Below, one piece after another: positions 1 to 48,165 of a DNA stretch of 64,000 bases (positions within the stretch are counted from its first letter, which is position 1; each line of letters opens with the position of its first letter). The DNA comes from an alpha proteobacterium MED-G09 (lineage in GTDB: Bacteria > Pseudomonadota > Alphaproteobacteria > MED-G09): contig CAJIZT010000008.1 in assembly GCA_905182015.1 (NCBI GenBank), positions 57,801-121,800 on the forward strand, read 5' to 3'. A program made the translations under genes and the position numbers. Below the pieces are notes generated by a model that searched no databases, had not been told where the DNA came from, and saw nothing but the letters and a program-made list of their open reading frames with translations.

Positions 1-512
1 ATAGATTCAAAAGGATTATCTTCACCTTTTTTACTTTTTGAGTTTTTATCATTAGTCGCGGAAAATTGACCCTTAGTAAGGCCATACGTACCATTATTAT
101 CAACAACGTAGAGCATATTTAAACGTCGTCGAATAATATGACAAAATTGTCCTAATCCAATTGAGGCAGTATCTCCATCACCTGAAACACCTAAGTAAAC
201 TAAATCCCTATTAGCCAAATTAGCCCCAGTAGCAACGGAGGGCATTCGGCCATGTACTGAATTAAATCCATGAGATTTGTTCAAAAAGTAAGTGGGAGTT
301 TTTGAAGAACACCCAATACCTGATAACTTAGCTAATTTATGAGCAGGAATTGATAAATTATAACAAGCTTCAATAATTGCCGAAGAAACAGAATCATGGC
401 CACACCCAGCGCATAAGGTTGATAGCGCGCCCTCATAATCCCTTCTGTTTAAGCCTAAAGCATTCGTAGGTAACTTTGGGTGATGTACGGAAGGTTTTTT
501 TATAAAGCTCAT
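1..512 (-). CDS. korB: 2-oxoglutarate/2-oxoacid:ferredoxin oxidoreductase beta subunit (TPP-binding). Partial: the C-terminus runs off the window edge.
   Basis: Own translation of the minus strand from the ATG at 512: MSFIKKPSVHHPKLPTNALGLNRRDYEGALSTLCAGCGHDS...VYLGVSGDGDTASIGLGQFCH...YVVDNNGTYGLTKGQ. It has a CxxC motif and a GDGD TPP-binding motif, and sits 8 nt downstream of korA. Confidence 0.8.
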   Translation of the reverse strand, partial: MSFIKKPSVHHPKLPTNALGLNRRDYEGALSTLCAGCGHDSVSSAIIEACYNLSIPAHKLAKLSGIGCSSKTPTYFLNKSHGFNSVHGRMPSVATGANLANRDLVYLGVSGDGDTASIGLGQFCHIIRRRLNMLYVVDNNGTYGLTKGQFSATNDKNSKSKKGEDNPFES

Positions 513-520
513 TTAATTAC

Positions 521-2353
521 TCATGCTGCTGATTGTTTTTTCTTTAATGATTTGAAGACAACTTGATTTTTCTTTAAAAGATTTAAAAATGCCTTCACAA
601 TAAAGTTAGCTGTTACAGGACTCCCGTCAAAATTAAGGATTGAATGTATCTTGGAGCTATCTTTATTGAGTTCATTGATAAGCAACGATCTCATTTGAGC
701 GTCTCTATTTTGTTCCATGACAATTATATGATCATGATCGTCTATAAACGAAGAAATGCCTCTTCCAAAAGGAAATGATCTTATCCTGAGTAAGTCAGTG
801 GCATGCCCTTGTGATTCAAGAATATCATTTGCTTCATCTATTGCCACAGAGGTAGATCCAAAATATATTAACCCAATATTTGTATCTTTTTTTGCTTTCC
901 TTCGAACTGACTTTGGTAAATATTTTACTGACTTTTTAAATTTTTTTGTTATTCGCATCATATTATCAGCATTGATTCTTCCATCTTCAGTGTATCCTGC
1001 GAAAGCATCATGAGATGTTCCCCTTGTGAAGTAGGAGCCTTTTGTTTCATGTGTACCTGGTAAAGTTCTATACGGAATGCCATCGCCATCAACATCTAAA
1101 TACCTACCCCAGTTCATAAGTTCATCGAGGTCTTGTTTTTTTAATACCTTTCCTCTCTCATATGAAGTCTTATCATTCCACTGCAGGGGGTCTATTACCC
1201 AATCATTCATCCCTATATCAAGATCACTCATAACAATAATGGGTGTTTGAAGAATTTCCGCAAGATCAAAAGATTGTGCCGCCATTTCAAAACACTCCTT
1301 TGGATCAGAAGGAAAAAGAAGGATATGTTTTGTGTCTCCATGTGATGCATACGCACATGATAAAATATCTGATTGCTGAGTCCTTGTTGGCATTCCAGTG
1401 GAAGGACCTCCTCGTTGAATATTAAATAAAACTAAAGGTATTTCTGCAAAATAAGCTAATCCTAAAAATTCACTCATTAATGAAATGCCGGGACCAGAAG
1501 TTGCGGTAAATGCACGAGCTCCATTCCAGTTAGCCCCTATTGCCATCCCTACTGCAGCTAATTCATCCTCCGCCTGAATGATTCCTGCGCTAACTTCTCC
1601 ATTATCTTTAACTCTAAAAAGATTTACATATTTTTGAAAGGCCTCAACAAGAGAGGTAGATGGGGTAATCGGATACCAACCAACAACCGTAGCCCCCCCA
1701 TAAACACAACCCAGACCAGCTGCCTCATTACCTTGTATCAGGATTTTCTTTTTAGTTGTCCGAATCTTTTTTAAGCCAACATTCAAATCGCAATCAAGAT
1801 TTTCTAAAGCAAAATCTCGTCCAAGATAAAGCGCCTTTATGTTAGGCGGTATTAATTTAGGTTTCTTTTCAAAATCTTCTTTTATTAAACTTTCAATAAT
1901 CTTTATATCAATTTTTAATAAGGCTGCGAGAGCACCTAAACAAACAATATTTTTAAATAGCTGTCTTTGTCTCGGGTCATCATAGTTTTCAGCACAAATA
2001 CTTGCCATTGGAATCCCAATATAATTTATATCCTTACGAGAAAAATTTCTAGGCATTGTGTTATCGTAAACTAGGTATCCGCCAGGTAATATTTCCTTCA
2101 CATCAGTTTGGTATGTTTGAGGGTTTAAAGTTATAAAACAATCAATCCCCTCTCTTCTGGCCGCATAGCCATGCTTACTTATCCTAACTTCAAACCATGT
2201 AGGAAGCCCTTGAATATTCGAAGGAAAAATATTTTTAGGCGTTACGGGAATTCCCATTCGAAAAATTGACTTAGCAAACATTGCATTTGCACTTGCTGAA
2301 CCCGATCCATTTACATTCGCAAATTTTACAACAAAATCATTAATTTTACTCAT
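521..2353 (-). CDS. korA: 2-oxoglutarate/2-oxoacid:ferredoxin oxidoreductase alpha subunit. The tracked ORF extends to 2455, but the likely start is the ATG at 2353 (MSKINDFVVKF).
   Basis: A 610-644 aa product with an N-terminal KFANVNGSGSASAN segment, a pyruvate-flavodoxin/ferredoxin oxidoreductase-like core (GLGCVYGGATVVGWYPITPST) and a korB gene directly downstream. The ATG at 2351-2353 overlaps the upstream TGA. Confidence 0.8.
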   Translation of the reverse strand: MSKINDFVVKFANVNGSGSASANAMFAKSIFRMGIPVTPKNIFPSNIQGLPTWFEVRISKHGYAARREGIDCFITLNPQTYQTDVKEILPGGYLVYDNTMPRNFSRKDINYIGIPMASICAENYDDPRQRQLFKNIVCLGALAALLKIDIKIIESLIKEDFEKKPKLIPPNIKALYLGRDFALENLDCDLNVGLKKIRTTKKKILIQGNEAAGLGCVYGGATVVGWYPITPSTSLVEAFQKYVNLFRVKDNGEVSAGIIQAEDELAAVGMAIGANWNGARAFTATSGPGISLMSEFLGLAYFAEIPLVLFNIQRGGPSTGMPTRTQQSDILSCAYASHGDTKHILLFPSDPKECFEMAAQSFDLAEILQTPIIVMSDLDIGMNDWVIDPLQWNDKTSYERGKVLKKQDLDELMNWGRYLDVDGDGIPYRTLPGTHETKGSYFTRGTSHDAFAGYTEDGRINADNMMRITKKFKKSVKYLPKSVRRKAKKDTNIGLIYFGSTSVAIDEANDILESQGHATDLLRIRSFPFGRGISSFIDDHDHIIVMEQNRDAQMRSLLINELNKDSSKIHSILNFDGSPVTANFIVKAFLNLLKKNQVVFKSLKKKQSAA

Positions 2354-4140
2354 TTTGAGCAACCATCTTTTGCTTGCGCACCCATATAAAAGAATTTTTG
2401 CATATCCCACGCACCTGTTGGGCATCTTTCTGCACAGAGGCCGCAGTGTAAACAAAGATCTTCATCTTTCACCATCACTCTGGCCGTTGGAAGAATATCG
2501 GAGACATACAGATCTTCGGCAAGATTTAATGCCGGAACTCTTAGGTTTAAACGTAGAGCTTCTTCTTCATCATTTTCAATAAAATTAATACAATCCTCAG
2601 GACATATATCAACGCACGCATCACACTCGATACACCTACTTTCCTCAAAAACAGTCTGAGCATCACAATTAAGACACCTACTAGCCTCTTCAAAAGCCAT
2701 TTTTTCATCATACCCAAGCTCTACCTCAAGCTTCCTGTCTTTAAGACTTGATTTTAAATCCGCGTGAGGAACAGCTAAGCGGTTAACTTCATCATAACCG
2801 TTGTCATAAGACCATTCATGTAATCCCATTTTCGATGATTTCAAGAAGACATGGGGAGCTGGTCTCTCAATTAAATCTAGATTGTTGCAATAAAGATCAA
2901 TTGATATAGCCACCTCATGAGCGTGAGCCACCGCTGTAATAATATTTTCAGGACCCCATGCGGCATCGCCACCGAAGAATACCTTCGGCAGAGTTGATTG
3001 CATAGTTTTTTTATCAACTGTAGGCATATCCCATTCATCAAATTCAATACCAATATCTTTTTCTATCCACTCAAAAGCATTGTCTTGGCCGATAGCCATT
3101 AAAACATCATCACATTCGACCGTTACAAGAGGCTCGCCAGTAGGTATGAGTTTTCTTTTATTATTTTCATCGTATTGCGCAGTAACTTTCTCAAATAACA
3201 TACCCCATAACTTACCTTCTTTTACTAGAAACTTTTTAGGAACATGATTCTCAAAAATAGGAATATTTTCCATTTCCGCTTCTTCGATCTCCCAATCAGA
3301 AGCTTTCATATCGGCCTGAGGTGACCGAACATAAACACCAACACTTTCACCTCCCAGCCTCACTGCTGTTCGGCAGCAATCCATGGCTGTATTTCCACCC
3401 CCAAGAACAATAACTTTTTTTCCAACCTTAGATACATGCTCAAAAGCAACAGATGCAAGGAAATCAATTCCAATATGAATATTCTTAGAAGCCTCTTCTC
3501 TTCCAGGTAGATTTAAATCCTTACCTTTAGGTGCCCCAGTTCCAATAAAAACTGCATCATGATCAAGTTTCAAGAACTCTTTAAAGCTCTTTACTTCATA
3601 ATTATATTCTACATCTAAACCCATATTAATTATTTGATTACACTCTTCATCCAGAACCTCTGCTGGTAATCTAAAGGAAGGAATATTTGTTCTCATCAGT
3701 CCGCCGGGAACATGATCTCTTTCGTACGCAGTGCACTCATACCCCAAAGGAACAAGATCTCTCGCAACGGCCAATGACACGGGCCCAGCACCGAGTAATG
3801 CAATTTTCTTTCCGTTAGTTTTTTTTGGTGCTTTTGGAATTAAATCTGTAATATCATCCTTATAGTCCGCAGCGACTCTTTTTAATCGACAGATAGCAAC
3901 CGGCTCATCCTCTACGCGGACTCTCCTACAAGCTGGTTCACAAGGCCGGTCACAGGTCCTTCCCAAAATTCCCGGAAAAACATTAGACTCCCAATTAATC
4001 ATATACGCGTCAGTATATTTGCCATCCGCAATTAAACGAATGTACTCCGGGACTGGTGTATGAGCAGGACAGGCCCACTGGCAGTCAACAACTTTGTGAA
4101 AGTATTCTGGATCAGATATATCTGTTGGTCTCATAGGCAT
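2350..4140 (-). CDS. GltD/NfnB/PreT-like NAD(P)H-dependent FAD oxidoreductase fused to a C-terminal 2x[4Fe-4S] ferredoxin domain.
   Basis: N-terminal Cys cluster (CDRPCEPAC), two dinucleotide-binding motifs (KIALLGAGPVSLAVARDL; KKVIVLGGGNTAMDCC), and C-terminal CLNCDAQ...CIECDACVDICP plus CLHCGLCAERCP. Its stop codon overlaps the korA start (ATGA). Confidence 0.75.
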   Translation of the reverse strand: MPMRPTDISDPEYFHKVVDCQWACPAHTPVPEYIRLIADGKYTDAYMINWESNVFPGILGRTCDRPCEPACRRVRVEDEPVAICRLKRVAADYKDDITDLIPKAPKKTNGKKIALLGAGPVSLAVARDLVPLGYECTAYERDHVPGGLMRTNIPSFRLPAEVLDEECNQIINMGLDVEYNYEVKSFKEFLKLDHDAVFIGTGAPKGKDLNLPGREEASKNIHIGIDFLASVAFEHVSKVGKKVIVLGGGNTAMDCCRTAVRLGGESVGVYVRSPQADMKASDWEIEEAEMENIPIFENHVPKKFLVKEGKLWGMLFEKVTAQYDENNKRKLIPTGEPLVTVECDDVLMAIGQDNAFEWIEKDIGIEFDEWDMPTVDKKTMQSTLPKVFFGGDAAWGPENIITAVAHAHEVAISIDLYCNNLDLIERPAPHVFLKSSKMGLHEWSYDNGYDEVNRLAVPHADLKSSLKDRKLEVELGYDEKMAFEEASRCLNCDAQTVFEESRCIECDACVDICPEDCINFIENDEEEALRLNLRVPALNLAEDLYVSDILPTARVMVKDEDLCLHCGLCAERCPTGAWDMQKFFYMGAQAKDGCSK

Positions 4141-4286
4141 ATCAGACTAGATTCCCCCCTGCTCTGATACTCTGTAATATGAAATCAAAATTCGAATCAG
4201 TTTTCATTTAAACAATATCCAATAGTTAAGATTCACTTATTAACAAGTCAACTGAATAACAAAAAATTAGGGAAAAAAATGTCTAT

Positions 4287-4667
4287 TTAACCTAATACTC
4301 TAGATGTTTCGGCCTCATAGGCTTTCATATCAAAATAATCCCGCCAATTTGATATTAATCCATCCTGAAACTCCATCACTCCCATAACAAGAATATCCAT
4401 CCACTGACCATTTACCTCAAACCGATCAGTTCTTTCAGTTAAGACAATTCCATCAGAATTTTCAGCGATATTATGAACTATCCATTCAATATTGGATGTC
4501 ATTTGAACGAAAGGCTCTAAATAAGCTCGAATTTGTTCATGGCCTTTTTGTGGATCCATCGGTATATTATGATAGAAACAATTTTCAGAAAGTGCGCCCA
4601 TTATTCCATCAATATCACGATTATTCCAACATTCAATAAATTGTAAAGCTCTAGTTGTATTGTTCAT
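4287..4667 (-). CDS. NTF2-like superfamily protein (SnoaL / limonene-1,2-epoxide hydrolase-like), 126 aa.
   Basis: Its size and composition fit a small alpha+beta cone-fold protein. It is the last gene of a minus-strand run: ggt, acyl-CoA synthetase, then this gene. Confidence 0.5.
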   Translation of the reverse strand: MNNTTRALQFIECWNNRDIDGIMGALSENCFYHNIPMDPQKGHEQIRAYLEPFVQMTSNIEWIVHNIAENSDGIVLTERTDRFEVNGQWMDILVMGVMEFQDGLISNWRDYFDMKAYEAETSRVLG

Positions 4668-4684
4668 ATTTTCCTCTTTTTTTG

Positions 4685-6202
4685 TTAAGTTAATAAAATT
4701 TCTTCAAATTTGATACGTAAATCTTTCTTTTGTACCTTACCCATTGCATTAACAGGAAGGAATTCAACCCATATAAAAGATTTAGGAATTTTATATTTAG
4801 CCAAGAATCCATGAAGTGAAGCATTTATATCTTTTTCATCAACAAGATTATTATCATTGTCCGCAACAAGAATAGCAATTGGACATTCTCCAAAATCTAT
4901 ATGCTTAACTCCGATTACAGCACTTTCTTTAATTCCATCGATTGCATTCAACAATATTTCAATTTCTTTTGGATAAATATTAAATCCGCCTGAAATAATC
5001 ATATCGCCGGATCGCCCAGATAAACTTAATCTTCCGTCTTTGTCAATCTGACCAATATCACCTGTTATAAAAAAACCATCCTCAGTGAACTCTTGTTTAG
5101 TTTTCTCTTTCATCTTCCAATAACCCTTAAAAACATTCGGGCCCCTAACCTGAACAATACCCTTCTCATTCGTCGGCAATACCTTGCAGTCCTTTACTAT
5201 TCTTATCTCAATGTTAGGCAAAGAAAATCCTACCGTTCCCTCCACCCTATCTCCATGCAAAGGATTTGATGTAATCATCCCAGTTTCAGTCATTCCATAA
5301 CGCTCCAGTATCGAGTGTTTGGTTATATTTTTAAATTCGTTAAATGTTTTTTCCGTCAAGGGGGCCGATCCAGAAATAAAGAGTCGTATCCTCTTAAATA
5401 TCTTTTCAGTAAAACTCTTTTCATCAATTAATCGATTATAAAATGTTGGAACTCCCATCATTACACTAGATTTTTTGAGATTATAAATGACTTCAGGAAT
5501 AATAAATTTTTCTAAAAATATCACCTCTGATGCACTCAGGAAAGCAGTATGTAGGGCTACAAACAACCCATGAACATGAAATATTGGCAAAGCGTGCAAT
5601 AAAGTATCATGACTAGAAAAACTCCAAGCCTCCTTTAGGGCACGAGCATTAGATGATAAATTGCCATGTGTAATCATTGCCCCTTTTGACCTGCCTGTGG
5701 TTCCAGAGGTAAATAAAATGGCAGCTGTATCGTTGTCAGAGCAAGACTCAAAAATATGATACGGATTAAGCGATAGGATTTCTTTTATAAAAGAATCTTC
5801 ATTATTTACTCCCATTGCCCTGAGATTAGGAACACCTAACATTTTACAAACCTGATTAACCTCCTCGTAATTTTCTAAGGAGCAAACAAAAAGTTTTGGT
5901 TCTATATTATTAATAAAATATTCAACTTCTTTCATGGTATAAGATGTATTTAATGGCGTATATATCAAACCCATCCTTAGGCACCCTAAGTAGAGTCCAA
6001 CAGCAAAGACGGATTTATCATTTTGACAGATTATTCTATCACCTTTCTTCAGACCTAATCCATTCAGGTATGAGGCAAACAGAGCGGACAGATGATCAAT
6101 TTCTTTGTAGGACCATTTCTTTTGGCCTGGAATATTAATGCAAACTTTATCGGTGTCCTGATTAAAACCATCAAATAAAATTTTGTATAAATTCTTACTC
6201 AT
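4685..6202 (-). CDS. AMP-dependent synthetase/ligase (acyl-CoA synthetase, MatB-like size).
   Basis: AMP-binding signature LFTSGTTGRSKGAMITHGNL, with YGMTETG and GDIGQIDKDGRLSLSGR motifs, and the C-terminal invariant K (GKVQKK). Confidence 0.8.
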   Translation of the reverse strand: MSKNLYKILFDGFNQDTDKVCINIPGQKKWSYKEIDHLSALFASYLNGLGLKKGDRIICQNDKSVFAVGLYLGCLRMGLIYTPLNTSYTMKEVEYFINNIEPKLFVCSLENYEEVNQVCKMLGVPNLRAMGVNNEDSFIKEILSLNPYHIFESCSDNDTAAILFTSGTTGRSKGAMITHGNLSSNARALKEAWSFSSHDTLLHALPIFHVHGLFVALHTAFLSASEVIFLEKFIIPEVIYNLKKSSVMMGVPTFYNRLIDEKSFTEKIFKRIRLFISGSAPLTEKTFNEFKNITKHSILERYGMTETGMITSNPLHGDRVEGTVGFSLPNIEIRIVKDCKVLPTNEKGIVQVRGPNVFKGYWKMKEKTKQEFTEDGFFITGDIGQIDKDGRLSLSGRSGDMIISGGFNIYPKEIEILLNAIDGIKESAVIGVKHIDFGECPIAILVADNDNNLVDEKDINASLHGFLAKYKIPKSFIWVEFLPVNAMGKVQKKDLRIKFEEILLT

Positions 6203-6219
6203 GAACTAATTCCTCTTAA

Positions 6220-7914
6220 TTACTCAACATTCAACACTAAACCCTCACGCCTAGGGTCTGCTCCGCCGACGTATCCGGTAGGTTTTTTTAATGCAATATG
6301 TAGCCCGCTTCTTTTGGGCATCACCCTCACCCTATGCCCCATAGCTTCTAAATCAGACTGCAAGTCTTCCAAAATTGTATTTTCTTCTAATTCAGTCACC
6401 TTGCCCTTATTCATGTAATGGGGTAATTTTACTATATCCTTTGGATCTAGATTCCAATCAATAAGCCCTAGGACTGATTTAGTAACATAGTTTATTATAC
6501 TTGTTCCGCCTGGTGATCCTGTTAAAGCAAACAAATTACTGTCTTTAAAAATAATTGTCGGAGTCATGGATGACATGGGTCTTTTATTACCCTCAACCCT
6601 ATTTGCGATCTTTTTTCCATTTACCTCAGGTATCATTGAAAAATCTGTTAATTCATTATTTAATATAAAACCTCCTGCCATTAAATGACTGCCAAACGGC
6701 CCCTCTACCGTTGAAGTCATGGAAACCGCATTACCCTCATTGTCTACTATAACAAAGTGGCTAGTCGAGGGTTTAGAGATATCTATATTTTTTTCAAAAT
6801 CTAATGCACCTTTTGGTCGACCATGGGTAACTTCTTTTACAAGTTCTTTTTGGTTAATCAAAGACCTTCTTTGATCAATGTATTCGTCACTTAATAATCC
6901 ATCTACAGGTACTTTTACAAAATCTGGATCAGCCATATAATAACCTCGATCAGCATAGGCTAGGCGACTAGCCTCAGAAAAAAGATGCACCATTTCTTTA
7001 GATTCTGGTTTTAGTGACTTAATATCAAAATCTTCTAATATTTTTAGCATTATTAGCATTGTCAATCCCCCTGAGGATGGGGGTGGCATACTACAGATAT
7101 TATAAGACCTATACATTTGACAAAGAGGCTCGCGCCAAATAATTTCGTAATTTTTTAAATCACTCAAAGTCATTAATGCCTTACTATCAAATTCTTTTAA
7201 GGCATTTATTATTAAGTCAGCAGTTTCTCCTTCATAAAAATCTATTGCGCCCAGTGATGCTATTCTTCTGAGAGTTTTAGCGTATTCTTGATTTCTAAAA
7301 ATATGCCCTACAGGCAAAGGTTCTTTTTTTTCTCCAACACCTTCTTGATAATAAAGAGAGGCAGCAGGCTCAATTGTTTTTAAATAACTTAAATAACTCA
7401 ATGTTCGATTAAGATCTGGTGAAACAGCGAACCCATCTTCAGATAATGTAATGGCGTAATCAAATAGCTTAGCCCACTCCAATCTACCAAATTTTTTATG
7501 AGATTCTTCCAGCAACCTTATAACCCCGGGAACCCCAACTGAATTTACTCCAATCACAGCATCCGGATAAAAAGGTTTTTTATTCCCACTTTTATCCAAA
7601 AAAAGATCGTCTTTTGCTCTTGAAGGTGCAGTTTCTCTTCCGTCGAGAGAAAATAACTTTGATTGTCTTGCATCCCAATAGAGCATAAATGCTCCGCCAC
7701 CAATCCCTGTTGCCTGAGGTTCTGTAAGTGTTAAAACTAATTGTACTGCAATAGCTGCATCAATAGCATTACCACCTCTTTTTAATATTTCAGAAGCAGC
7801 TTTTGAGGCGTGTGAATTTGATGTAGCGATTATCCCCTTTCCTGGTTTTAAATCGCTTGCATTACAAGCTGTTATAAAAAAAATAGAAAACACAGAAAGA
7901 ATAAAAAGTCTCAT
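6220..7914 (-). CDS. ggt: gamma-glutamyltranspeptidase, likely a lipoprotein.
   Basis: N-terminal signal peptide with lipobox (FFITAC), and a TSHFVIVDNEGNAVSMTSTVEGPFGS segment around the catalytic Thr. The product is 564 aa. Confidence 0.85.
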   Translation of the reverse strand: MRLFILSVFSIFFITACNASDLKPGKGIIATSNSHASKAASEILKRGGNAIDAAIAVQLVLTLTEPQATGIGGGAFMLYWDARQSKLFSLDGRETAPSRAKDDLFLDKSGNKKPFYPDAVIGVNSVGVPGVIRLLEESHKKFGRLEWAKLFDYAITLSEDGFAVSPDLNRTLSYLSYLKTIEPAASLYYQEGVGEKKEPLPVGHIFRNQEYAKTLRRIASLGAIDFYEGETADLIINALKEFDSKALMTLSDLKNYEIIWREPLCQMYRSYNICSMPPPSSGGLTMLIMLKILEDFDIKSLKPESKEMVHLFSEASRLAYADRGYYMADPDFVKVPVDGLLSDEYIDQRRSLINQKELVKEVTHGRPKGALDFEKNIDISKPSTSHFVIVDNEGNAVSMTSTVEGPFGSHLMAGGFILNNELTDFSMIPEVNGKKIANRVEGNKRPMSSMTPTIIFKDSNLFALTGSPGGTSIINYVTKSVLGLIDWNLDPKDIVKLPHYMNKGKVTELEENTILEDLQSDLEAMGHRVRVMPKRSGLHIALKKPTGYVGGADPRREGLVLNVE

Positions 7915-7956: not shown

Positions 7957-8985
7957 ATGCCTTTGTTTAGTTTCCTTATAATGATTAATTTAGGAAAAAG
8001 AAATTTAATAACAGATGTTGATGGTATCTTGGTTGGCAATGCACATGATCAAGGTATTGGCACAGGTTGTACTGTTATTACACCAATTGAAGGCACTTTA
8101 GCATCTGCAGATGTTAGGGGAGGGGCGCCCGGAACAAGGGAGGTCGGGGCATTAAATCCTTATAATCTTGTTAATTCAATCGACTCAGTTGTACTGTCCG
8201 GAGGATCAACTTGGGGTCTCGATGCAGCTAGTAGTGTAGCGAATTATATTGGGTCACAGGGAAGGGGATTCAGCGCATCTCCAGAATCCAAGCATGTTCC
8301 TATGGTACCAGGAGCAATTCTATATGACCTATCAAATGGAGGTGATAAAAAGTGGGGGGACAGTTCACCATACTACGATCTTGGGATTAAAGCGGCATCC
8401 AGTATATCCGATAACATAATATTAGGAAATGCAGGAGCGGGATATGGTGCTAAAGCCGGATCTCTTAAAGGAGGGCTCGGAAGCGCCTCCTTTGTATGTA
8501 GTGACGGAATACAAGTAGGTGGTTTATTTGCGGTTAATAGTTATGGCTCCACACTTAATAATGAGACAGGACAATTTTGGGCTTCAACAGACGAAAATAA
8601 AAATGAATTTGGCGGACGAGGCGTGCCTAACTATGCTCCGATGAATATACTGGCCGGAACAAAGGCTGGTAAACCACTTCCTGGACAAAATACAACAATA
8701 GGGGTTATAGCAACTAATGCAAAATTAGATGCAAAAGCAGCTAAGAGAATAGCTATAATGGCTCATTCGGGTATGTCGCGAGCTATTAGGCCTATTCATT
8801 CCCCAGTTGACGGTGATGTAATTTTTGTACTAAGCACTGGTACATTAAAAAAAGAAATAAAGCTCAACGATATAAATATTATAGGAGAGTTAGGGGCAAG
8901 AGTATGCTCAAGATCAATAGCCAGAGGTGTTTTCGAGGCTGAAAGTATCTTAGGAATGAAGTCTTGGAAAGAAGTATATGAATAA
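7957..8985 (+). CDS. DmpA/ArgJ-fold (S58, P1-family) aminopeptidase. An alternative start is the ATG at 7981.
   Basis: RNLITDVDGILVGNAHD...GTGCTVI...GGSTWGLDAAS...TIGVIATNAKL pattern, typical of DmpA-type Ntn-hydrolases. It is divergent from ggt with only about 42 bp between them. Confidence 0.7.
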   Translation: MPLFSFLIMINLGKRNLITDVDGILVGNAHDQGIGTGCTVITPIEGTLASADVRGGAPGTREVGALNPYNLVNSIDSVVLSGGSTWGLDAASSVANYIGSQGRGFSASPESKHVPMVPGAILYDLSNGGDKKWGDSSPYYDLGIKAASSISDNIILGNAGAGYGAKAGSLKGGLGSASFVCSDGIQVGGLFAVNSYGSTLNNETGQFWASTDENKNEFGGRGVPNYAPMNILAGTKAGKPLPGQNTTIGVIATNAKLDAKAAKRIAIMAHSGMSRAIRPIHSPVDGDVIFVLSTGTLKKEIKLNDINIIGELGARVCSRSIARGVFEAESILGMKSWKEVYE

Positions 8986-25795: not shown

Positions 25796-27145
25796 CTAAT
25801 TATTCTTGGAAAGATATTTATCAATATTTTCATGGAAATAACGAATTCTATTTTCTTGAGACGGCATATAATCACCAAGATATCCTCGAGAACTGAGGCC
25901 TTTTTGTTGGCTTGTCCATATTGCCACATCTTCACTTATGCCAGGTCCAACATCCACCTCTGAGTGATGACCTTCAAGATGAGGAACCTTAGTATTTATA
26001 TCTGTTTCCATACCAAGGCTTGGTGAGTGATACTTATCAACACCTTTAGGAAATAAAGTTAGATACCAATAATCAAAATAGCACTTGGTAGGGTCGGTAG
26101 GGTGAGGCGACGCCCTTAGCCACTGCATACCATCAGGTTTAACGCTGAAAGACATGTTTGGGAAAATCGTATAATGATAATGATCCGTTAACTGAGTGTC
26201 TTTAAACTTACTAAAGTCATAACCCTTTTCTTTATCTAATTTACGTTTTTGTTTTTGAAGGTCTCCTCTTATATCAAGGAGCTTTCCCTTATAGTCTTTG
26301 GGGTCCATATCCCAATATTCAATATGCGGGCCAATCATTTCTAAAATTTTTTCTTCTTCGCTATATACGCTCTCACTAGGAATGAAGCCAGGCATAAGCA
26401 TTCTAGAATGCATGCTCTCGTACATATCAAATTGACAGGATTGGTATTTTTCTTCGGCCACATATTTTAGATTTGGATGCACATAGGGCGTATGGTAAGA
26501 TTCATTAAAGTTATCCTGAACACATTTCCAATTCCAATCCCCTTCAATTGTTACCCAGTGAGTTCGTATCATGTCAGAGATTGGATACGCCTCCAAATGC
26601 TCCATTATAGGGTTAAGATACTCTTTAAGTGGCTTACAATCAGGGTCTAAGTTAAAAAAGATAAAACCCGCCCAGACTGTAGATTTTATTTCAACAAGAT
26701 TCCTTCTTCCGCAAGGTGATCCCTGGAGAAAGTCTTCTTCGTCCGGAACCCATTTGAGTGTTCCGTCCAAACCAAACTTCCAGGCATGGTAGGCACAATC
26801 AAAACTCTCTAGATTTCCTTCCTTAACTTGGACAAGTTGATTCCCTCTATGCTGGCAAACATTATAAAAACACCTAATCTTTGAATCTTCACCTTTGGCG
26901 CATAAAATAGATTCTGAACCAAATTCAAATGTAAAAAAATCACCAGGGTTTGATAATTGCTGCTCAAGGCCGGCCACTTGCCAAACCTTAGTCCATAACT
27001 TATCCCATTCAAGCTTCATAAATTCTTTTGAAGTATATCGGTCTCCAAGGATAGGTTGGTTGCCAAGCTTGGGTTCAGGATCTTTACTCCAATCTTCGCT
27101 AAAAAATTTCTCTGCTAAAGGTTTTTTTTCTGCTTGTTTTACCAT
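25796..27145 (-). CDS. Rieske [2Fe-2S] non-heme-iron oxygenase alpha subunit (paralog A).
   Basis: Rieske motifs CFYNVCQHRGNQL...CAYHAWKF, and a mononuclear iron motif NFNESYHTPYVH (H-x4-H). The N-terminus is the canonical RYTSKEFMKLEWDKLWTKVWQ. Confidence 0.85.
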   Translation of the reverse strand: MVKQAEKKPLAEKFFSEDWSKDPEPKLGNQPILGDRYTSKEFMKLEWDKLWTKVWQVAGLEQQLSNPGDFFTFEFGSESILCAKGEDSKIRCFYNVCQHRGNQLVQVKEGNLESFDCAYHAWKFGLDGTLKWVPDEEDFLQGSPCGRRNLVEIKSTVWAGFIFFNLDPDCKPLKEYLNPIMEHLEAYPISDMIRTHWVTIEGDWNWKCVQDNFNESYHTPYVHPNLKYVAEEKYQSCQFDMYESMHSRMLMPGFIPSESVYSEEEKILEMIGPHIEYWDMDPKDYKGKLLDIRGDLQKQKRKLDKEKGYDFSKFKDTQLTDHYHYTIFPNMSFSVKPDGMQWLRASPHPTDPTKCYFDYWYLTLFPKGVDKYHSPSLGMETDINTKVPHLEGHHSEVDVGPGISEDVAIWTSQQKGLSSRGYLGDYMPSQENRIRYFHENIDKYLSKNN

Positions 27146-31269: not shown

Positions 31270-32703
31270 ATGGGAAAAATCGACATACATAGTCTAGCGA
31301 TTGATGGAAAAGATCAAAAAAATCTAAGAGGCGATCCGATAACAAATGATCGCTACTTTTCTAAAGATTTTATGACAAAAGAATGGGACAATATGTGGAC
31401 TAAGGTCTGGCTAATAGCTGGCAGAGAAGTTCAAATTAAAGAGCCCGGTGACTATATTGTTCATGACCTTATAACAGAATCTGTAATTATTGTTAGACAA
31501 GACGATGGATCAATAAAAGGCTTCTATAATAGCTGTGCCCACAGAGGTCAGAGACTTGTTAATTTTGATAGCTCACAAGATTCTTTTAGATGTCCCTATC
31601 ATGATTGGCAATTTGGATTAAACGGAGATGTAATTGGCTGCCCAGATCCCGATGACTTTCCTGAAGGAAGTCCAATCGGAAAAAGAAAATTAGTAGAGGT
31701 TCGGGTAGATAGCTGGGATGGTTTTATTTTTTATACTATGAGTGACGAGGCGCCTGAGCTTTTAGAGTATCTAGATCCTTTGCCTGAAATTTATAAAAAT
31801 CATAATTTTAAAGATCAGATTAGAGCTCAATGGGTAAGAGTAGAGCTAGATGTTAATTGGAAATATTTTTGTGATAATTTTAACGAGTCATACCACACAA
31901 GATTTGTGCACCCTCAAGTTCCTTCAGTAATAGATCAAGATCATTTTACTTCAAGATATGAAATGTTTCCTAAAGGTCATGCAAGAATTGTCCAAATGGG
32001 TCGGCCTTCTTTGCGTGATAGAATTCCTGAAGGTGAAGATCATCCCTTTAAAATGCTTCTGGAGGACTGGGGGATAGATATAACCAAATATCCTGATTAT
32101 GAAACACTTTCTGAGCAAGGGTGGGTAGACCTAAAGGAAGCCAAAAGAAAAAATTATAAAGAAAAAGGTTATCATCATTATGAAAATCTCTCAGATGAAG
32201 AGTTAACTGAAAGTCCTTTTCAATTTATTTTTCCAAATATTGCCATGGGTGTTCAAGCAGACGGCTGCATTCTTTTAAATTGGTTCCCTCATCCGACAGA
32301 TCCTGAAAAATGTTTTTTTGATCTTTGGGACATGGGTTATCCAATCGGTGGTGCAGCGAAAGGAATAGGTAAAACAGGTAGAGAGAACGATCAAGAATTT
32401 ACTTCAACATCAGCAGGTATAGGTAAAAAAGATAGTTACGTTGGGGAATTTGTTAGTCGTACTAAAGTAAATCCAGTTAAACTTCAAGAAGTTGAATTAG
32501 ATTTTCGTGATTATGATGGAGGGAAAGGTGTTGAAGATCTATGGGATCATGTTGTTTATCAAGACTGGCAGCTTACAGATGGTTTAAGGCGCGGCGTTAG
32601 ATCTAGAGGGTATCAAGAACCTTATCTTGCGTCTCAAGAGACAAGAGTAAGATTTTTTCATGAAAAACTTCATGATTATTTAAACGGAAAACCACCGAAA
32701 TAA
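31270..32703 (+). CDS. Rieske non-heme-iron oxygenase alpha subunit (paralog B).
   Basis: FYNSCAHRGQRL...CPYHDWQF, and NFNESYHTRFVH. Confidence 0.85.
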   Translation: MGKIDIHSLAIDGKDQKNLRGDPITNDRYFSKDFMTKEWDNMWTKVWLIAGREVQIKEPGDYIVHDLITESVIIVRQDDGSIKGFYNSCAHRGQRLVNFDSSQDSFRCPYHDWQFGLNGDVIGCPDPDDFPEGSPIGKRKLVEVRVDSWDGFIFYTMSDEAPELLEYLDPLPEIYKNHNFKDQIRAQWVRVELDVNWKYFCDNFNESYHTRFVHPQVPSVIDQDHFTSRYEMFPKGHARIVQMGRPSLRDRIPEGEDHPFKMLLEDWGIDITKYPDYETLSEQGWVDLKEAKRKNYKEKGYHHYENLSDEELTESPFQFIFPNIAMGVQADGCILLNWFPHPTDPEKCFFDLWDMGYPIGGAAKGIGKTGRENDQEFTSTSAGIGKKDSYVGEFVSRTKVNPVKLQEVELDFRDYDGGKGVEDLWDHVVYQDWQLTDGLRRGVRSRGYQEPYLASQETRVRFFHEKLHDYLNGKPPK

Positions 32704-33272: not shown

Positions 33273-34532
33273 TTATTTTTTTAAGAATTTAATTGGTAAC
33301 TCTTTCATCTGATGAATATATAAACTTGAATGATGAGGAATCTCGGGTAGCGGTCTAGCAAGCTCTATATTTTTTAATCTTTCAAATAAGTGTATGAATG
33401 CAGTTTTCATCTCTGCTCGCGCAAGCATTGCTCCAACACAATGATGGGGGCCCGATCCAAAAGCTAAATGTTTACCAACATCCTTACGTTCAACATTAAA
33501 CTCTTCAGGATTTGTAAATATTTCTTCATCCCTATTAAATGACGCATACCTTACTAGCAAAACGCTTCCCTTCTTAATACTCTCTCCATCAATCTCAGTG
33601 TCTTCTGTTACAGTTCGAAAAAGGCCCTGAACAGGTGTTTCAAATCTGATAACCTCCTCAACAAAGTTAGGTATAAGGTCTATATCTTCAATGATTTTAT
33701 TCATTTGTTTGGGATGTTTCAATAAAAGCCAAAGTCCGTGCGCTATTGAACTTGTGGTTGTCTCATTGCCTCCGGCTAATAATTGAGCAACCAGCCCTTG
33801 AAGCTCATCATTAGTTAGGTTCTCACCTCCATCAAGCTTAAGGTTTACTAATTCAGATATAATGTCATCTGTTGGATTTTTTCTCTTATCATTGAATATT
33901 TTATCAAAATAATGTTGGGACTCTGCCTCCAGGTGAGCAGCTTTCTTCATTTCTTCTACGTTTGCAACCCCGAACGAAACAATCATTGCATCTGACCATA
34001 ACTTTAGTTTCGGGAGCATTGATCTTGGTACACCCAGCTGGTCGGCAATAATTGTAGATGGAATTGGAACCGCATAATCATTAACAAACTCACACTCGCC
34101 TTTCTCTATAAAGGAATCAATTAAGTCATTCACGACTTTTGAAATATAAGGCTGCATCTCTTTAACTCTACTAGATGTAAACGCTTTGTTTAATAATTTT
34201 CTATATTTACTGTGTAGAGGTGGGTCTGTTCTTTGAAGTGTCTCCACAAAAGACCCCACACCATAATTCTTAATAATCTCCGCATGTGCCTTAATGCCTT
34301 CGTCTTCATAGCTATCGTGCTGGGTAGGTTTATTAGAAAACTTTTTTGTATCAAGAAGAATTTGTCTTCCATCTTTATATTTTGTGATCATATAAAAGCC
34401 TAAATCAGGCATTTTATAGACTGGGCATTCTGCTCGAAGATTCTTATAGCTCTCATATGGGCAACTTTGAATCTTGGGATCCATAAAATTTATATTTTTT
34501 ATTAAAGAGCTCTGCTGATTTTTTTCTTTCAT
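33273..34532 (-). CDS. Cytochrome P450 (paralog 1).
   Basis: Heme-thiolate loop FGSGPHHCVGAMLA, an ExxR motif (EEVIRFETP), and an I-helix AGGNETT. Confidence 0.85.
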   Translation of the reverse strand: MKEKNQQSSLIKNINFMDPKIQSCPYESYKNLRAECPVYKMPDLGFYMITKYKDGRQILLDTKKFSNKPTQHDSYEDEGIKAHAEIIKNYGVGSFVETLQRTDPPLHSKYRKLLNKAFTSSRVKEMQPYISKVVNDLIDSFIEKGECEFVNDYAVPIPSTIIADQLGVPRSMLPKLKLWSDAMIVSFGVANVEEMKKAAHLEAESQHYFDKIFNDKRKNPTDDIISELVNLKLDGGENLTNDELQGLVAQLLAGGNETTTSSIAHGLWLLLKHPKQMNKIIEDIDLIPNFVEEVIRFETPVQGLFRTVTEDTEIDGESIKKGSVLLVRYASFNRDEEIFTNPEEFNVERKDVGKHLAFGSGPHHCVGAMLARAEMKTAFIHLFERLKNIELARPLPEIPHHSSLYIHQMKELPIKFLKK

Positions 34533-47373: not shown

Positions 47374-48165
47374 ATGTCAGACAAAACAATACTTCTAGAT
47401 ATTCAAGATAAGATTGGGACGATTACACTAAATAGACCAGAAAGAAAAAATGCAATTAATTCAACCATGGTGAATGAATGGGTAGAAATTTTGGATGAGT
47501 GTAGAGATAATCCAGAAATTTCAGCCATTATATTAACTGGTGCCGGTGAAGCCTTTTGTGCCGGAGGAGATAAAGCAAATCTTGGAGCAAATAATAAAAT
47601 AGATCCTCTCGAGACAAAAAATCATTTTTGGGATCATTTCCAAAGAGTTGCCAAAAGAACTGCATTAATAGAAAAGCCTATAGTGGCGGCTGTTAATGGA
47701 ATGGCTACAGGTGCAGGTATGGATATGAGTCTTCATTGTGATATTCGTTTTGCTGCAAAGAGTGCTATATTTAGAGCCTCTTATGCTGCATTTGGTTTAG
47801 TCCCGGGTAATGGAGGAACTTATTTTCTTCCTCGAATAGTAGGAACCTCCAAAGCATTAGAACTTTTTTGGTCTACTGATGTGATAGATGCTGAGGAAGC
47901 CCTAAGAATTGGTCTTATTAACAAAGTTTTTTCTGCAGATGATTTGATGGAAAAAACAAGAGAATGGGTGAGTAATGTTCTTAACCAAGCGCCAATTCCA
48001 GTAAGAGTAATTAAAAGGCTTATATATCAAAACGTAAATATGGACTTAAATACAAGTTTAGATTTAATTTCATCCCATATGGCGTTTGCCAGAACAAGTG
48101 AAGATCACGCAGAGGCTATTGCGGCTTCCGAAGAAAAAAGAACTCCAAAATTCAAAGGCAAATGA
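47374..48165 (+). CDS. Enoyl-CoA hydratase/isomerase (crotonase fold).
   Basis: FCAGGD oxyanion-hole motif and VAAVNGMATGAGMDM. The product is 263 aa. Confidence 0.8.
   Translation: MSDKTILLDIQDKIGTITLNRPERKNAINSTMVNEWVEILDECRDNPEISAIILTGAGEAFCAGGDKANLGANNKIDPLETKNHFWDHFQRVAKRTALIEKPIVAAVNGMATGAGMDMSLHCDIRFAAKSAIFRASYAAFGLVPGNGGTYFLPRIVGTSKALELFWSTDVIDAEEALRIGLINKVFSADDLMEKTREWVSNVLNQAPIPVRVIKRLIYQNVNMDLNTSLDLISSHMAFARTSEDHAEAIAASEEKRTPKFKGK

What the first reader, a model, noticed from the sequence alone, without database searches (positions are those of the whole stretch)
1..4140. NAD(P)H-flavoprotein/ferredoxin fusion translationally coupled to korAB
A 596-aa protein combines a GltD/PreT-type N-terminal Fe-S Cys cluster, two Rossmann motifs and a C-terminal 2x[4Fe-4S] ferredoxin domain (CIECDACVDICP; CLHCGLCAERCP). 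Its TGA overlaps the korA ATG (ATGA at 2350..2353), and korB starts 8 nt after korA. This arrangement would wire pyridine nucleotides directly to 2-oxoacid:ferredoxin oxidoreductase through a built-in ferredoxin. It could allow reversible NAD(P)H-linked 2-oxoglutarate synthesis or oxidation without soluble ferredoxin.
Basis: partly seen in the sequence, partly recalled or inferred. Interest (0 to 1): 0.5.

Follow-up and report, generated by a model that had tools for sequence, protein, structure and literature searches.

The report
NADP-linked 2-oxoglutarate oxidoreductase operon (korCAB)
Three adjacent genes encode a 2-oxoacid oxidoreductase with its own iron-sulfur flavoprotein that most likely passes electrons straight to NADP+; an enzyme of this kind was purified from a denitrifying bacterium in 2003, so this is a new member of a known type, though it is far more widespread in aerobic bacteria than is generally noted.

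Summary
On the minus strand there is a 596-aa iron-sulfur flavoprotein (4140..2350). Its TGA overlaps the korA ATG (ATGA at 2350-2353), and korB starts 8 nt after korA and is cut by the window edge.

The flavoprotein ("KorC") has three parts: a split, circularly permuted Fer4_20 domain, an FAD/NAD(P) Rossmann pair, and a C-terminal 2x[4Fe-4S] ferredoxin domain. An AlphaFold model has pLDDT 92. Its best structural matches are the NADPH-binding subunits of NfnABC/StnABC, then NfnB.

The gene order korC-korA-korB is conserved. It holds in 73 of 80 informative loci from Alpha-, Beta- and Gammaproteobacteria, Bacteroidota and Acidobacteriota, and down to 44% identity.

Aromatoleum aromaticum EbN1 carries the same operon at about 60% identity. 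Its congener Azoarcus (Aromatoleum) evansii is the source of the purified 2-oxoglutarate:NADP+ oxidoreductase. I therefore read the locus as an ortholog of that enzyme.

The proposed electron path is TPP, then the KorB cluster, then four KorC clusters, then FAD, then NADP+. It should run essentially irreversibly in the oxidative direction (about -39 kJ/mol). NAD(P)H-driven 2-oxoglutarate synthesis is unlikely.

This is a new member of a known kind, of modest interest. The gene is poorly annotated, and the kor genes of marine aerobes are commonly read as ferredoxin-producing.

The parts
2350..4140 (-). korC: 596-aa iron-sulfur flavoprotein (NAD(P)-binding module plus built-in ferredoxin); predicted 66.8 kDa
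   Evidence: ORF. Pfam and NCBIfam hits. AlphaFold model with pLDDT 92.3 and pTM 0.91. Foldseek best hits are 9bov_A, 8oh5_C, 9n5u_A and 5jca_L. Thousands of homologs at about 70% identity.
3856..4086 (-). KorC residues 19-95: second part of the Fer4_20 helical Fe-S domain (invariant C20, C24, C63, C67, C71, C84)
   Evidence: Pfam PF14691 profile positions 31-109 of 113. Invariant Cys in alignments A1 and A2. By the alignment to NfnI-L 5jca_L and the ligand list in PMC7596348, these map onto NfnB ligands Cys47, 51, 90, 96 and 100.
2920..3807 (-). KorC residues 112-407: FAD-binding and NAD(P)-binding Rossmann pair (GAGPVS at 117, GGGNTA at 247; V271-R272-S273 at the position of the NfnB YRR motif)
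   Evidence: Pyr_redox_2 E 3.5e-23. Motifs. Alignment to 5jca_L. Meaning of the YRR motif from PMC7596348.
2653..2730 (-). KorC residues 471-496: displaced first part of the Fer4_20 domain, with the CxxC pair C489/C492 (EASRCLNC)
   Evidence: This fragment alone hits Fer4_20 profile positions 6-31, E 1.7e-4. KorC residues 457-495 align to residues 11-48 of NfnI-L 5jca_L, while residues 19-418 align to 51-470. R488, C489 and C492 are invariant across the 46-sequence family alignment.
2410..2637 (-). KorC residues 502-577: C-terminal 2x[4Fe-4S] ferredoxin domain (C503/506/509/513 and C563/566/569/573) with a roughly 50-residue insert between the motifs
   Evidence: Fer4_7 E 4e-11, above cut-off. 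Weak PorD_KorD hit, 3.3e-7. Generic dicluster matches, and D. africanus PFOR domain V spans both motifs (1b0p_A 686-756, E 0.021). pLDDT is about 85-93 in the model.
2350..2353 (-). ATGA: the korC stop overlaps the korA start (translational coupling)
   Evidence: Read directly in the sequence. ATGA or GTGA sits at the KorC stop in 25 of 73 linked loci and at both junctions of the Aromatoleum EbN1 operon.
521..2353 (-). korA: 610-aa alpha subunit of a two-subunit-type 2-oxoacid:acceptor oxidoreductase (domains III-I-II; YPITP at residue 227); 67.8 kDa
   Evidence: POR and POR_N. TIGR03710 scores 562.7 against a cut-off of 482.75. Nearest solved structures are Magnetococcus OGOR 6n2n_A (3.7e-62) and Sulfolobus OFOR 5b48_A.
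513..520 (-). 8-nt spacer between the korA stop and the korB start
   Evidence: Read directly in the sequence.
1..512 (-). korB, first 170 of 351 codons (cut by the window edge): beta subunit with the TPP-binding GDG..NN motif and three of the four [4Fe-4S] ligands (C34, C37, C68; the fourth, C218, lies beyond the window)
   Evidence: TPP_enzyme_C and PorB_KorB hits. Full-length sequence from L001 13629-14684. Motifs. Nearest structure is 6n2n_B, 3.6e-40, aligned over residues 22-224 only.
4141..4286 (-). 146-nt intergenic region upstream of korC (after a same-strand SnoaL-like gene); presumed promoter/RBS region, no element identified
   Evidence: ORF map. The promoter/terminator scan found no more sites than in shuffles. 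No Rfam match.

Best explanation
The three genes encode one enzyme, a three-subunit 2-oxoglutarate (2-oxoacid):NADP+ oxidoreductase, KorCAB.

KorA and KorB are the catalytic core. They belong to the simple (alpha-beta)2 class of 2-oxoacid:ferredoxin oxidoreductases. This class has TPP and a single [4Fe-4S] cluster and lacks the internal ferredoxin domain (domain V or delta subunit) of larger family members.

KorC supplies what is missing. Its C-terminal 2x[4Fe-4S] domain is proposed to sit in the pocket where a soluble ferredoxin would dock on KorB. Two further [4Fe-4S] clusters are held by a split Fer4_20 domain. The FAD collects two single electrons and delivers a hydride to NADP+.

Net reaction: 2-oxoglutarate + CoA + NADP+ gives succinyl-CoA + CO2 + NADPH, without soluble ferredoxin. 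This is about 39 kJ/mol downhill, so it is physiologically one-way.

Shown here: the gene arrangement, the domain content, the conserved cluster ligands, the fold of KorC, the conserved synteny, and orthology to the Aromatoleum operon.

Inferred: formation of a complex, the order of the clusters, docking of the ferredoxin domain on KorB, the choice of NADP+ over NAD+, and 2-oxoglutarate as the substrate.
For: Domains.

Cluster ligands: C20/24/63/67/71, C489/492, C503/509 and C563/566/569/573 are invariant across a 46-sequence family alignment reaching down to about 30% identity; C506 and C513 are at least 90% conserved.

KorC structure: AlphaFold model with pLDDT 92.3 and pTM 0.91. Over about 616 alignment columns it matches the NADPH-binding subunits of NfnABC and StnABC (9bov_A, 8oh5_C, 9n5u_A), then NfnB (5jca_L, rmsd 2.5).

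KorAB class: the nearest solved structures are the domain-V-less Magnetococcus OGOR and Sulfolobus OFOR. The Sulfolobus paper describes a large ferredoxin-docking pocket next to the sole cluster (PMC5020499).

Synteny:
- korA lies within 400 nt downstream of korC in 73 of 80 informative loci from five phylum- or class-level groups, with different flanking genes.
- The linkage holds at 44% identity.
- It is lost at 36% identity, where the neighbours differ.

Orthology: Aromatoleum aromaticum EbN1 plasmid 2 has the same operon at 60/58/60% identity, with ATGA at both junctions.

Literature:
- A 2-oxoglutarate:NADP+ oxidoreductase of Azoarcus (now Aromatoleum) evansii is on record (Ebenau-Jehle et al. 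2003, cited).
- One of its subunits is placed in the GltD/NfnB/DsrL/NsoC family tree (PMC10134865).
- From my memory of that paper (its text was not available): subunits of 63, 62 and 37 kDa with FAD, TPP and Fe-S. The predicted masses here are 66.8, 67.8 and 38.4 kDa.
Against: - There is no biochemical data for this organism or for any aerobe carrying the operon.
- The NADP(H)-specifying YRR motif of NfnB and DsrL-2 is V-R-S in KorC. Cofactor preference therefore rests on orthology, not on the motif.
- The A. evansii sequence itself could not be retrieved. The link goes through a congener (EbN1) and through a secondary citation.
- KorA passes only the subfamily model '2-oxoacid:acceptor oxidoreductase', and the Sulfolobus relatives have broad substrate range, so 2-oxoglutarate is not proven.
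- Four Bacteroidota loci (L046, L050, L062, L081) have KorC with no korAB within the sequence held downstream (about 1.8 kb in L046, about 5 kb in the other three).
- Physical association of KorC with KorAB could not be modelled.
Confidence: 0.8

Rival explanations
1. Reversible enzyme: NAD(P)H drives reductive carboxylation of succinyl-CoA to 2-oxoglutarate through KorC, giving NAD(P)H-linked CO2 fixation without ferredoxin.
For: OFOR chemistry is intrinsically reversible, and the nearest solved KorAB relative (Magnetococcus OGOR, 6n2n) works in the reductive direction with a low-potential ferredoxin (my knowledge of that enzyme). The electron wire in KorC has no obvious rectifier.
Against: There is a redox gap of about 200 mV between NADPH (-320 mV) and the 2-oxoglutarate couple (about -520 mV) (established values). 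This is +39 kJ/mol uphill for two electrons. The operon encodes no energy input. The host is an aerobic heterotroph with five Rieske oxygenase alpha-subunit genes and two P450 genes in the window. No rTCA genes are nearby.
Confidence: 0.04
2. Flavin-based electron bifurcation or confurcation: the KorC FAD behaves like the bifurcating FAD of NfnB and couples KorAB, NADP(H) and a third, unidentified redox partner.
For: KorC residues 19-418 are homologous to NfnB, whose FAD is the bifurcating site (5jca_L: E 2.9e-70; rmsd 2.5).
Against: No NfnA-like partner or [2Fe-2S] high-potential branch is encoded. The operon ends after korB, where a convergent gene follows. All four KorC clusters plausibly form one linear chain. 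The closest full-length structural relatives are the NADPH subunits of NfnABC and StnABC; in my understanding, bifurcation there occurs at the FMN of another subunit, not at this module.
Confidence: 0.04
3. Same architecture and mechanism, but a different substrate or cofactor: a pyruvate or broad-range 2-oxoacid oxidoreductase, and/or NAD+ rather than NADP+.
For: KorA meets only a subfamily-level model. The Sulfolobus relatives use both pyruvate and 2-oxoglutarate (PMC5020499). KorC has VRS in place of YRR, and Arg/Ser at positions 2 and 3 also occur among NADH-type DsrL-1 proteins.
Against: Orthology (about 60%, gapless in KorC) to an operon of the genus in which the enzyme was found to be specific for 2-oxoglutarate and NADP+ (the specificity is from my memory of the paper). 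The best solved relative is a 2-oxoglutarate enzyme. R272 is invariant.
Confidence: 0.12

Closest known systems
2-oxoglutarate:NADP+ oxidoreductase (KGOR, KorABC) of Azoarcus/Aromatoleum evansii (Ebenau-Jehle, Boll, Fuchs 2003, J Bacteriol 185:6119)
   Same: It has three subunits: a KorAB-type OFOR core plus a flavoprotein of the GltD/NfnB family (PMC10134865). Subunit sizes match (reference values from memory). The same operon is found in the congener A. aromaticum EbN1 at about 60% identity.
   Different: The host here is an aerobic, low-GC (36.5%) marine bacterium with no benzoyl-CoA pathway context, whereas the characterised enzyme was induced during anaerobic aromatic degradation. The evansii sequence itself was not compared. 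Activity is untested here.
NADPH-binding subunits of Bfu-type transhydrogenases NfnABC (9bov_A, 9n5u_A) and StnABC (8oh5_C)
   Same: These are the best full-length structural matches (E 5e-45 to 2e-43, about 616-667 aligned columns). They share the permuted order: Fer4_20 second part, flavin/NADP domains, then the RCLxC motif and Cys-rich Fe-S region.
   Different: Those proteins are 950-1180 aa, with extra N-terminal and formate-dehydrogenase-like C-terminal domains, and they partner HydB/HydC-like subunits. KorC is 596 aa and partners KorAB.
NfnB / GltD / dihydropyrimidine dehydrogenase N-terminal module
   Same: The FAD and NADPH Rossmann pair and the two-cluster helical Fe-S domain are shared (5jca_L E 2.9e-70; TMt 0.79, rmsd 2.5).
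   Different: In KorC the first CxxC of the Fe-S domain has moved behind the flavin domain. A 2x[4Fe-4S] ferredoxin domain has been added. YRR is replaced by VRS. There is no NfnA or GltB partner.
DsrL (NAD(P)H:acceptor oxidoreductase partner of DsrAB sulfite reductase)
   Same: The logic and domain list are the same: two-cluster N-terminal domain, FAD/NAD(P) domains, a linker, and a C-terminal 2x[4Fe-4S] ferredoxin domain that couples pyridine nucleotides to a partner Fe-S enzyme (PMC7596348).
   Different: The partner is DsrAB, not KorAB. The authors explicitly excluded DsrL-like genes adjacent to OFOR subunit genes. In DsrL the N-terminal domain is described as contiguous.
Two-subunit 2-oxoacid:ferredoxin oxidoreductases (Magnetococcus OGOR 6n2n, Sulfolobus StOFOR 5b46/5b48, Thauera KGOR, M. 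tuberculosis KOR)
   Same: KorA and KorB have the same domain set (III-I-II and VI), one [4Fe-4S] cluster and no domain V.
   Different: Those enzymes use a soluble ferredoxin. Extracts containing the M. tuberculosis enzyme gave no measurable 2-oxoglutarate-dependent NAD+ or NADP+ reduction (PMC2773412). KorB here is about 50 residues longer, and its last roughly 125 residues do not align to 6n2n_B.
Other OFORs wired to pyridine nucleotides: pyruvate:NADP+ oxidoreductase of Euglena/Cryptosporidium, and phenylglyoxylate:NAD+ oxidoreductase PadEFGHI of A. evansii
   Same: The concept is the same: an OFOR core passes electrons to NAD(P)+ through an attached flavoprotein (my knowledge). The PadG model appears among the KorA hits.
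   Different: The flavoprotein modules are unrelated (a P450-reductase-like fusion in PNO), and the subunit sets and substrates differ.

Membership tests
Three-subunit 2-oxoglutarate:NADP+ oxidoreductase (A. evansii KGOR type) | Three co-encoded subunits: OFOR alpha, OFOR beta and a flavoprotein of about 63-67 kDa | tested here: met
   korC-korA-korB are contiguous. Predicted masses are 66.8, 67.8 and 38.4 kDa. The reference masses (63/62/37 kDa) are from my memory of the 2003 paper.
Three-subunit 2-oxoglutarate:NADP+ oxidoreductase (A. evansii KGOR type) | The flavoprotein subunit belongs to the GltD/NfnB Fe-S flavoprotein family | tested here: met
   Pfam, NCBIfam and PDB hits. PMC10134865 places the KGOR subunit in this family tree.
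Three-subunit 2-oxoglutarate:NADP+ oxidoreductase (A. evansii KGOR type) | Sequence orthology to the Aromatoleum genes | tested here: met
   60%, 58% and 60% identity to the EbN1 plasmid-2 operon, in the same order, with overlapping stop/start codons. The A. evansii sequence itself was not available.
Three-subunit 2-oxoglutarate:NADP+ oxidoreductase (A. evansii KGOR type) | Binding sites for FAD, TPP and Fe-S clusters | tested here: met
   GxGxxS and GGGNTA motifs, GDG..NN, YPITP, 4 Cys in KorB and 16 ligand Cys in KorC. Actual cofactor content cannot be tested here.
Three-subunit 2-oxoglutarate:NADP+ oxidoreductase (A. evansii KGOR type) | Specific reduction of NADP+ (not NAD+) | tested here: inconclusive
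   KorC has V271-R272-S273 at the position of the YRR motif. The Arg is invariant, but the motif is not diagnostic.
Three-subunit 2-oxoglutarate:NADP+ oxidoreductase (A. evansii KGOR type) | Specificity for 2-oxoglutarate, and a stable alpha-beta-gamma complex | not testable with these tools
   This needs an enzyme assay and co-purification or a structure.
Two-subunit (alpha-beta)2 2-oxoacid:acceptor oxidoreductases (TIGR03710 / TIGR02177) | Alpha subunit with POR (domain III) plus POR_N (domain I), above the curated cut-off | tested here: met
   TIGR03710 scores 562.7 against 482.75; PF01558 and PF01855 match.
Two-subunit (alpha-beta)2 2-oxoacid:acceptor oxidoreductases (TIGR03710 / TIGR02177) | Beta subunit with a TPP-binding fold and one Cys4 cluster site; no ferredoxin domain in alpha or beta | tested here: met
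   TPP_enzyme_C match; C34, C37, C68 and C218; no Fer4 hit in KorA or KorB. Only the window's truncated KorB was scored against TIGR02177, so that score is below the cut-off for this reason.
NfnAB transhydrogenase (NfnB subunit) | An NfnA partner with [2Fe-2S] and a second FAD; a contiguous N-terminal Fe-S domain; the YRR motif | tested here: not met
   No NfnA-like gene is in the operon. The Fe-S domain is split. YRR is replaced by VRS.
DsrL | Encoded in an organism or locus with dsrAB, and not linked to OFOR genes (criteria of PMC7596348) | tested here: not met
   The gene is directly linked to korAB. The criteria are quoted.
NfnABC/StnABC NADPH subunit | A large (more than 900 aa) protein with a formate-dehydrogenase-like domain and HydB/HydC-like partners | tested here: not met
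   KorC is 596 aa and its partners are KorA and KorB. The targets are 953-1178 aa.

The most novel reading that the evidence does not exclude
The KorC flavin retains NfnB-like bifurcating behaviour. Together with a still-unidentified high-potential acceptor, the complex could then run backwards, giving NADPH-driven 2-oxoglutarate synthesis (CO2 fixation) in aerobic marine heterotrophs.

A milder and much more probable version concerns the 'anaerobic-type' kor genes seen widely in aerobes, including marine groups such as SAR86, Halieaceae and Porticoccaceae. In this version they encode an oxygen-compatible step of the TCA cycle that makes NADPH rather than reduced ferredoxin.
Probability: 0.04. 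Interest if true: 0.8.

Novelty: new member of a known kind. Interest (0 to 1): 0.3.

Why it matters
The enzyme type is known from one denitrifier, but the literature held here barely cites it. Only 2 papers in the 8-million-paper library cite the 2003 study.

The flavoprotein gene is annotated as 'formate dehydrogenase beta subunit', 'glutamate synthase beta-like' or 'FAD-dependent oxidoreductase'. No NCBIfam model reaches its cut-off for it.

The operon is nevertheless highly conserved (KorC 63-72% identical across phyla). It is present in at least 599 GTDB species, including SAR86 and other mostly aerobic lineages.

A recent SAR86 paper reads these kor genes as a source of reduced ferredoxin for aromatic-ring reduction (PMC11582366). 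If the korC linkage means what it means in Aromatoleum, the product is NADPH instead.

That would change metabolic reconstructions (NADPH budget; no need for a low-potential ferredoxin). It would also change the use of korAB as an 'anaerobic' or rTCA marker in metagenomes.

Tried and rejected
- **The 2003 paper and related texts.** PMC225024 and its DOI, the Carmona review (PMC2650882) and the bzd paper (PMC516837) are not held. Details of the A. evansii enzyme therefore rest on its title, on two citing papers and on my memory.
- **Searching for a named Azoarcus/Aromatoleum homolog.** A second protein search with a betaproteobacterial KorC returned only unnamed or MAG hits. The plasmid collection then gave the EbN1 operon.
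- **First AlphaFold run.** With 12 close homologs it failed (pLDDT 50). A 46-sequence alignment that included 30-50% relatives gave pLDDT 92. Coordinates are not exposed, so Cys-Cys distances could not be measured.
- **AFDB search.** The afdb50 fold library was unavailable.
- **C-terminal domain as a delta-subunit / domain V homolog.** It gives only generic dicluster-ferredoxin hits. The PorD_KorD hit (3.3e-7) and the PFOR domain V hit (0.021) are too weak to claim specific descent.
- **Promoter, terminator and Rfam scans.** Nothing above chance was found around the operon.
- **SAR11 attribution rejected.** I first took the 1.3-1.4 Mb genomes carrying a 72% homolog to be SAR11. Locus L003 has 37% GC, so I do not make that claim.
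- **Recent horizontal transfer rejected.** GC content is uniform (35-40%) across the window.

Full report
**Observation**

The features lie on the minus strand.
- A 596-aa ORF runs from 4140 to 2350.
- The 'tcat' at 2350-2353 is ATGA on the coding strand, so its TGA overlaps the ATG of the next gene.
- That gene (2353..521, 610 aa) ends in TGA at 523..521.
- Eight nucleotides later (512..510) a third gene starts and runs off the window at residue 170.
- A contig 99.6% identical to the window (L001) supplies the full 351-aa product. It also shows that a convergent gene follows, so the unit has three genes.

- Protein 1 has Fer4_20 (residues 19-95), Pyr_redox_2 (112-407) and Fer4_7 (502-577), all above Pfam cut-offs.
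- Protein 2 is a 2-oxoacid:acceptor oxidoreductase alpha subunit (TIGR03710, 562.7 bits against a cut-off of 482.75).
- Protein 3 is the TPP-binding beta subunit.

I call the three genes korC, korA and korB.

**Anatomy of KorC**

The Fer4_20 match covers only profile positions 31-109, so the first CxxC of that domain is missing from the N-terminus. It is found after the flavin domain.
- KorC residues 457-495 (..EVELGYDEKMAFEEASRCLNC..) align to residues 11-48 of the Pyrococcus NfnI large subunit, while residues 19-418 align to its residues 51-470.
- The isolated fragment hits Fer4_20 profile positions 6-31 at E 1.7e-4.

KorC is therefore circularly permuted relative to NfnB/GltD.

PMC7596348 lists the Thermotoga NfnB ligands. 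Mapping KorC onto them through the NfnI-L alignment:
- C489, C492, C20 and C71 correspond to the distal cluster (NfnB Cys39, 42, 47, 100).
- C24, C63 and C67 correspond to the proximal cluster (Cys51, 90, 96).
- The fourth proximal ligand is Glu117 in NfnB. In KorC it is probably the clade-invariant C84. This is an inference.

The C-terminal domain carries two complete CxxCxxCxxxCP motifs. Nearly all of these Cys are invariant in a 46-sequence alignment reaching down to about 30% identity; C506 and C513 are at least 90% conserved. C84 is invariant within the KorC clade.

KorC is thus predicted to hold four [4Fe-4S] clusters plus FAD.

An AlphaFold model built on that alignment is confident (pLDDT 92.3, pTM 0.91). 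The Foldseek results are:
- Best: the NADPH-binding subunits of the Bfu-type transhydrogenases NfnABC and StnABC (9bov_A, 8oh5_C, 9n5u_A), with about 616-667 aligned columns.
- Next: NfnB (5jca_L, rmsd 2.5).

**KorAB**

The closest solved relatives are Magnetococcus OGOR (6n2n) and Sulfolobus OFOR (5b46/5b48). These belong to the simplest OFOR class: one [4Fe-4S] cluster, no internal ferredoxin domain V, and a large surface pocket next to the cluster where a soluble ferredoxin docks (PMC5020499).

KorB has the four expected Cys (34, 37, 68, 218) and the GDG..NN TPP motif. KorA has YPITP.

KorB is about 50 residues longer than the Magnetococcus subunit, and its last roughly 125 residues do not align to it. 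This is a candidate KorC-docking element, but that is speculation.

**Conservation of the linkage**

KorC homologs at about 65-72% identity number in the thousands.

The 80 loci kept come from:
- Alphaproteobacteria
- Gammaproteobacteria (SAR86 single-cell genomes, Halieaceae, Porticoccaceae)
- Betaproteobacteria
- Bacteroidota
- Acidobacteriota

I added loci found by exact-protein look-up and in the plasmid collection. After removing duplicates:
- 80 loci have at least 600 nt downstream of korC.
- 73 have korA starting within 400 nt on the same strand.
- 68 of 69 with room for it then have korB.
- The median gap is 5 nt.
- 25 have ATGA or GTGA at the korC stop.
- Flanking genes differ between lineages.

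The seven loci not counted as linked:
- L037 and L053 have korA further downstream (about 2.1 kb and 1.4 kb). In L037 the gap holds a 671-aa repeat protein.
- L056 has only about 780 nt downstream.
- Four Bacteroidota loci (L046, L050, L062, L081) show no korAB in the downstream sequence held.

In the 50%-clustered library the KorC clade collapses to a few representatives. The linkage still holds at 44% identity (L089). It is lost for a same-architecture protein at 36% identity, which instead sits next to cytochrome b, Rieske and cytochrome c genes (L091).

**What it is**

Aromatoleum aromaticum EbN1 plasmid 2 carries the same operon. It is annotated only as 'FAD-dependent oxidoreductase', '2-oxoacid:acceptor oxidoreductase subunit alpha' and 'subunit beta'. 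Identities to the window proteins are 60%, 58% and 60%, the KorC alignment is gapless, and ATGA overlaps occur at both junctions.

Azoarcus evansii is now Aromatoleum evansii. It is the source of the purified '2-oxoglutarate:NADP+ oxidoreductase' (Ebenau-Jehle, Boll, Fuchs 2003).
- I could not read that paper.
- Its title and citation are confirmed in two reference lists.
- PMC10134865 places its subunit 'KGOR-alpha' in the GltD/NfnB/DsrL/NsoC family tree.
- From memory, the enzyme has three subunits of 63, 62 and 37 kDa, contains FAD, TPP and Fe-S, and is specific for 2-oxoglutarate and NADP+. The masses predicted here are 66.8, 67.8 and 38.4 kDa.

I conclude that the window encodes an ortholog of this enzyme.

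**Mechanism**

The proposed electron path is:
1. TPP in KorAB.
2. The KorB [4Fe-4S] cluster.
3. The two clusters of the KorC C-terminal ferredoxin domain, standing in for the missing domain V or soluble ferredoxin.
4. The two clusters of the split Fer4_20 domain.
5. FAD.
6. NADP+.

The cofactor sites and the fold are shown. The order of the clusters, the docking and the existence of a complex are inferred.

With E0' of about -520 mV for the 2-oxoglutarate couple and -320 mV for NADP+/NADPH (established values), oxidation releases about 39 kJ/mol. The enzyme is thus a functional analogue of the 2-oxoglutarate dehydrogenase complex that yields NADPH. No second electron outlet for bifurcation is encoded.

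Cofactor preference cannot be read from the sequence. The YRR motif that binds the 2'-phosphate in NfnB and DsrL-2 is V271-R272-S273 in KorC. These residues are conserved in both the alpha- and betaproteobacterial clades.

**Context**

- The window has uniform GC (35-40%), so the operon is not a recent import.
- The window also holds five Rieske ring-hydroxylating oxygenase alpha-subunit genes, two P450 genes, two TonB-dependent receptors and MFS transporters. The host is therefore an aerobic marine heterotroph.
- Its closest named relative is a 'Hyphomicrobiales bacterium' MAG.
- No regulatory element was detected upstream.

**Comparison and novelty**

The concept of an OFOR wired to pyridine nucleotides by an attached flavoprotein is known. 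Examples are the A. evansii KGOR, Euglena/Cryptosporidium pyruvate:NADP+ oxidoreductase and phenylglyoxylate:NAD+ oxidoreductase (the last two from my knowledge).

DsrL uses the same architecture to couple NAD(P)H to DsrAB. Its authors noted DsrL-like genes next to OFOR genes and excluded them from their analysis (PMC7596348).

This locus is therefore a new member of a known kind. What is under-appreciated is its breadth and its annotation state.
- No NCBIfam model reaches its cut-off for KorC (best score 389.8 against 516).
- Source names are misleading.
- Only two papers in the library cite the 2003 work.
- A 2024 SAR86 study interprets the kor genes as producers of reduced ferredoxin (PMC11582366).

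**Verdict**

- Confidence in the best explanation is 0.8.
- Interest is 0.3.

Noticed in passing
window 25796-27145 (-), 31270-32703 (+), 48086-49543 (+), 52958-54343 (-), 55724-57109 (+); also L001 18006-19334: There are five Rieske ring-hydroxylating oxygenase alpha-subunit genes within 64 kb, and a sixth just beyond the window's left edge. That is an unusually dense set for a small, low-GC marine genome. No beta subunits or reductase partners were looked for.
   Followed up: partly
window 33273-34532 (-), 39804-41051 (-), 34725-37013 (+), 43726-46116 (-), 41977-43623 (-): Two cytochrome P450 genes, two TonB-dependent receptors and a 548-aa FAD_binding_2 flavoprotein are clustered together, next to a NosD/beta-helix protein (38564-39799). 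This may be an uptake-and-oxidation island for an unknown substrate.
   Followed up: no
L091 5001-11851: A 616-aa protein with the KorC architecture (36% identity) is followed by cytochrome b (two genes), a Rieske protein, a dihaem cytochrome c and an EB_dh-domain protein, not by korAB. This could be an NAD(P)H flavoprotein-ferredoxin attached to a bc-type complex.
   Followed up: no
L046, L050, L062, L081 (Bacteroidota: Chitinophagaceae, Saprospiraceae, Saprospirales, Taibaiella): KorC orthologs at 64-66% identity have no korA or korB in the sequence held downstream (about 1.8 kb in L046, about 5 kb in the others). It is unknown whether korAB lies elsewhere in these genomes.
   Followed up: partly
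L037 6777-8860: A 671-aa FG-GAP/VCBS-like repeat protein is inserted between korC and korA in one Bacteroidota MAG. This shows that the operon tolerates an intervening gene.
   Followed up: partly
window 4287-7914 (-) and 7957-8985 (+): Upstream of korC on the same strand lie a SnoaL-like protein, an AMP-dependent ligase and a gamma-glutamyltranspeptidase. A divergent S58 (DmpA-type) peptidase follows. This context is not conserved in other lineages.
   Followed up: partly
window 4134-4140: The korC ORF begins MPM..., and most orthologs begin at the equivalent of the second Met (MKPTD...). The true start may therefore be 4134, giving 594 aa. 594-aa versions exist in the database (P0004, P0005).
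   Followed up: partly
L087 (Aromatoleum aromaticum EbN1 plasmid 2, 105-9594): The EbN1 copy of the operon is on a conjugative plasmid. It sits next to two acyl-CoA dehydrogenase genes, a CBS-domain protein and a second 590-aa FAD-dependent oxidoreductase, so the operon can be mobile.
   Followed up: no
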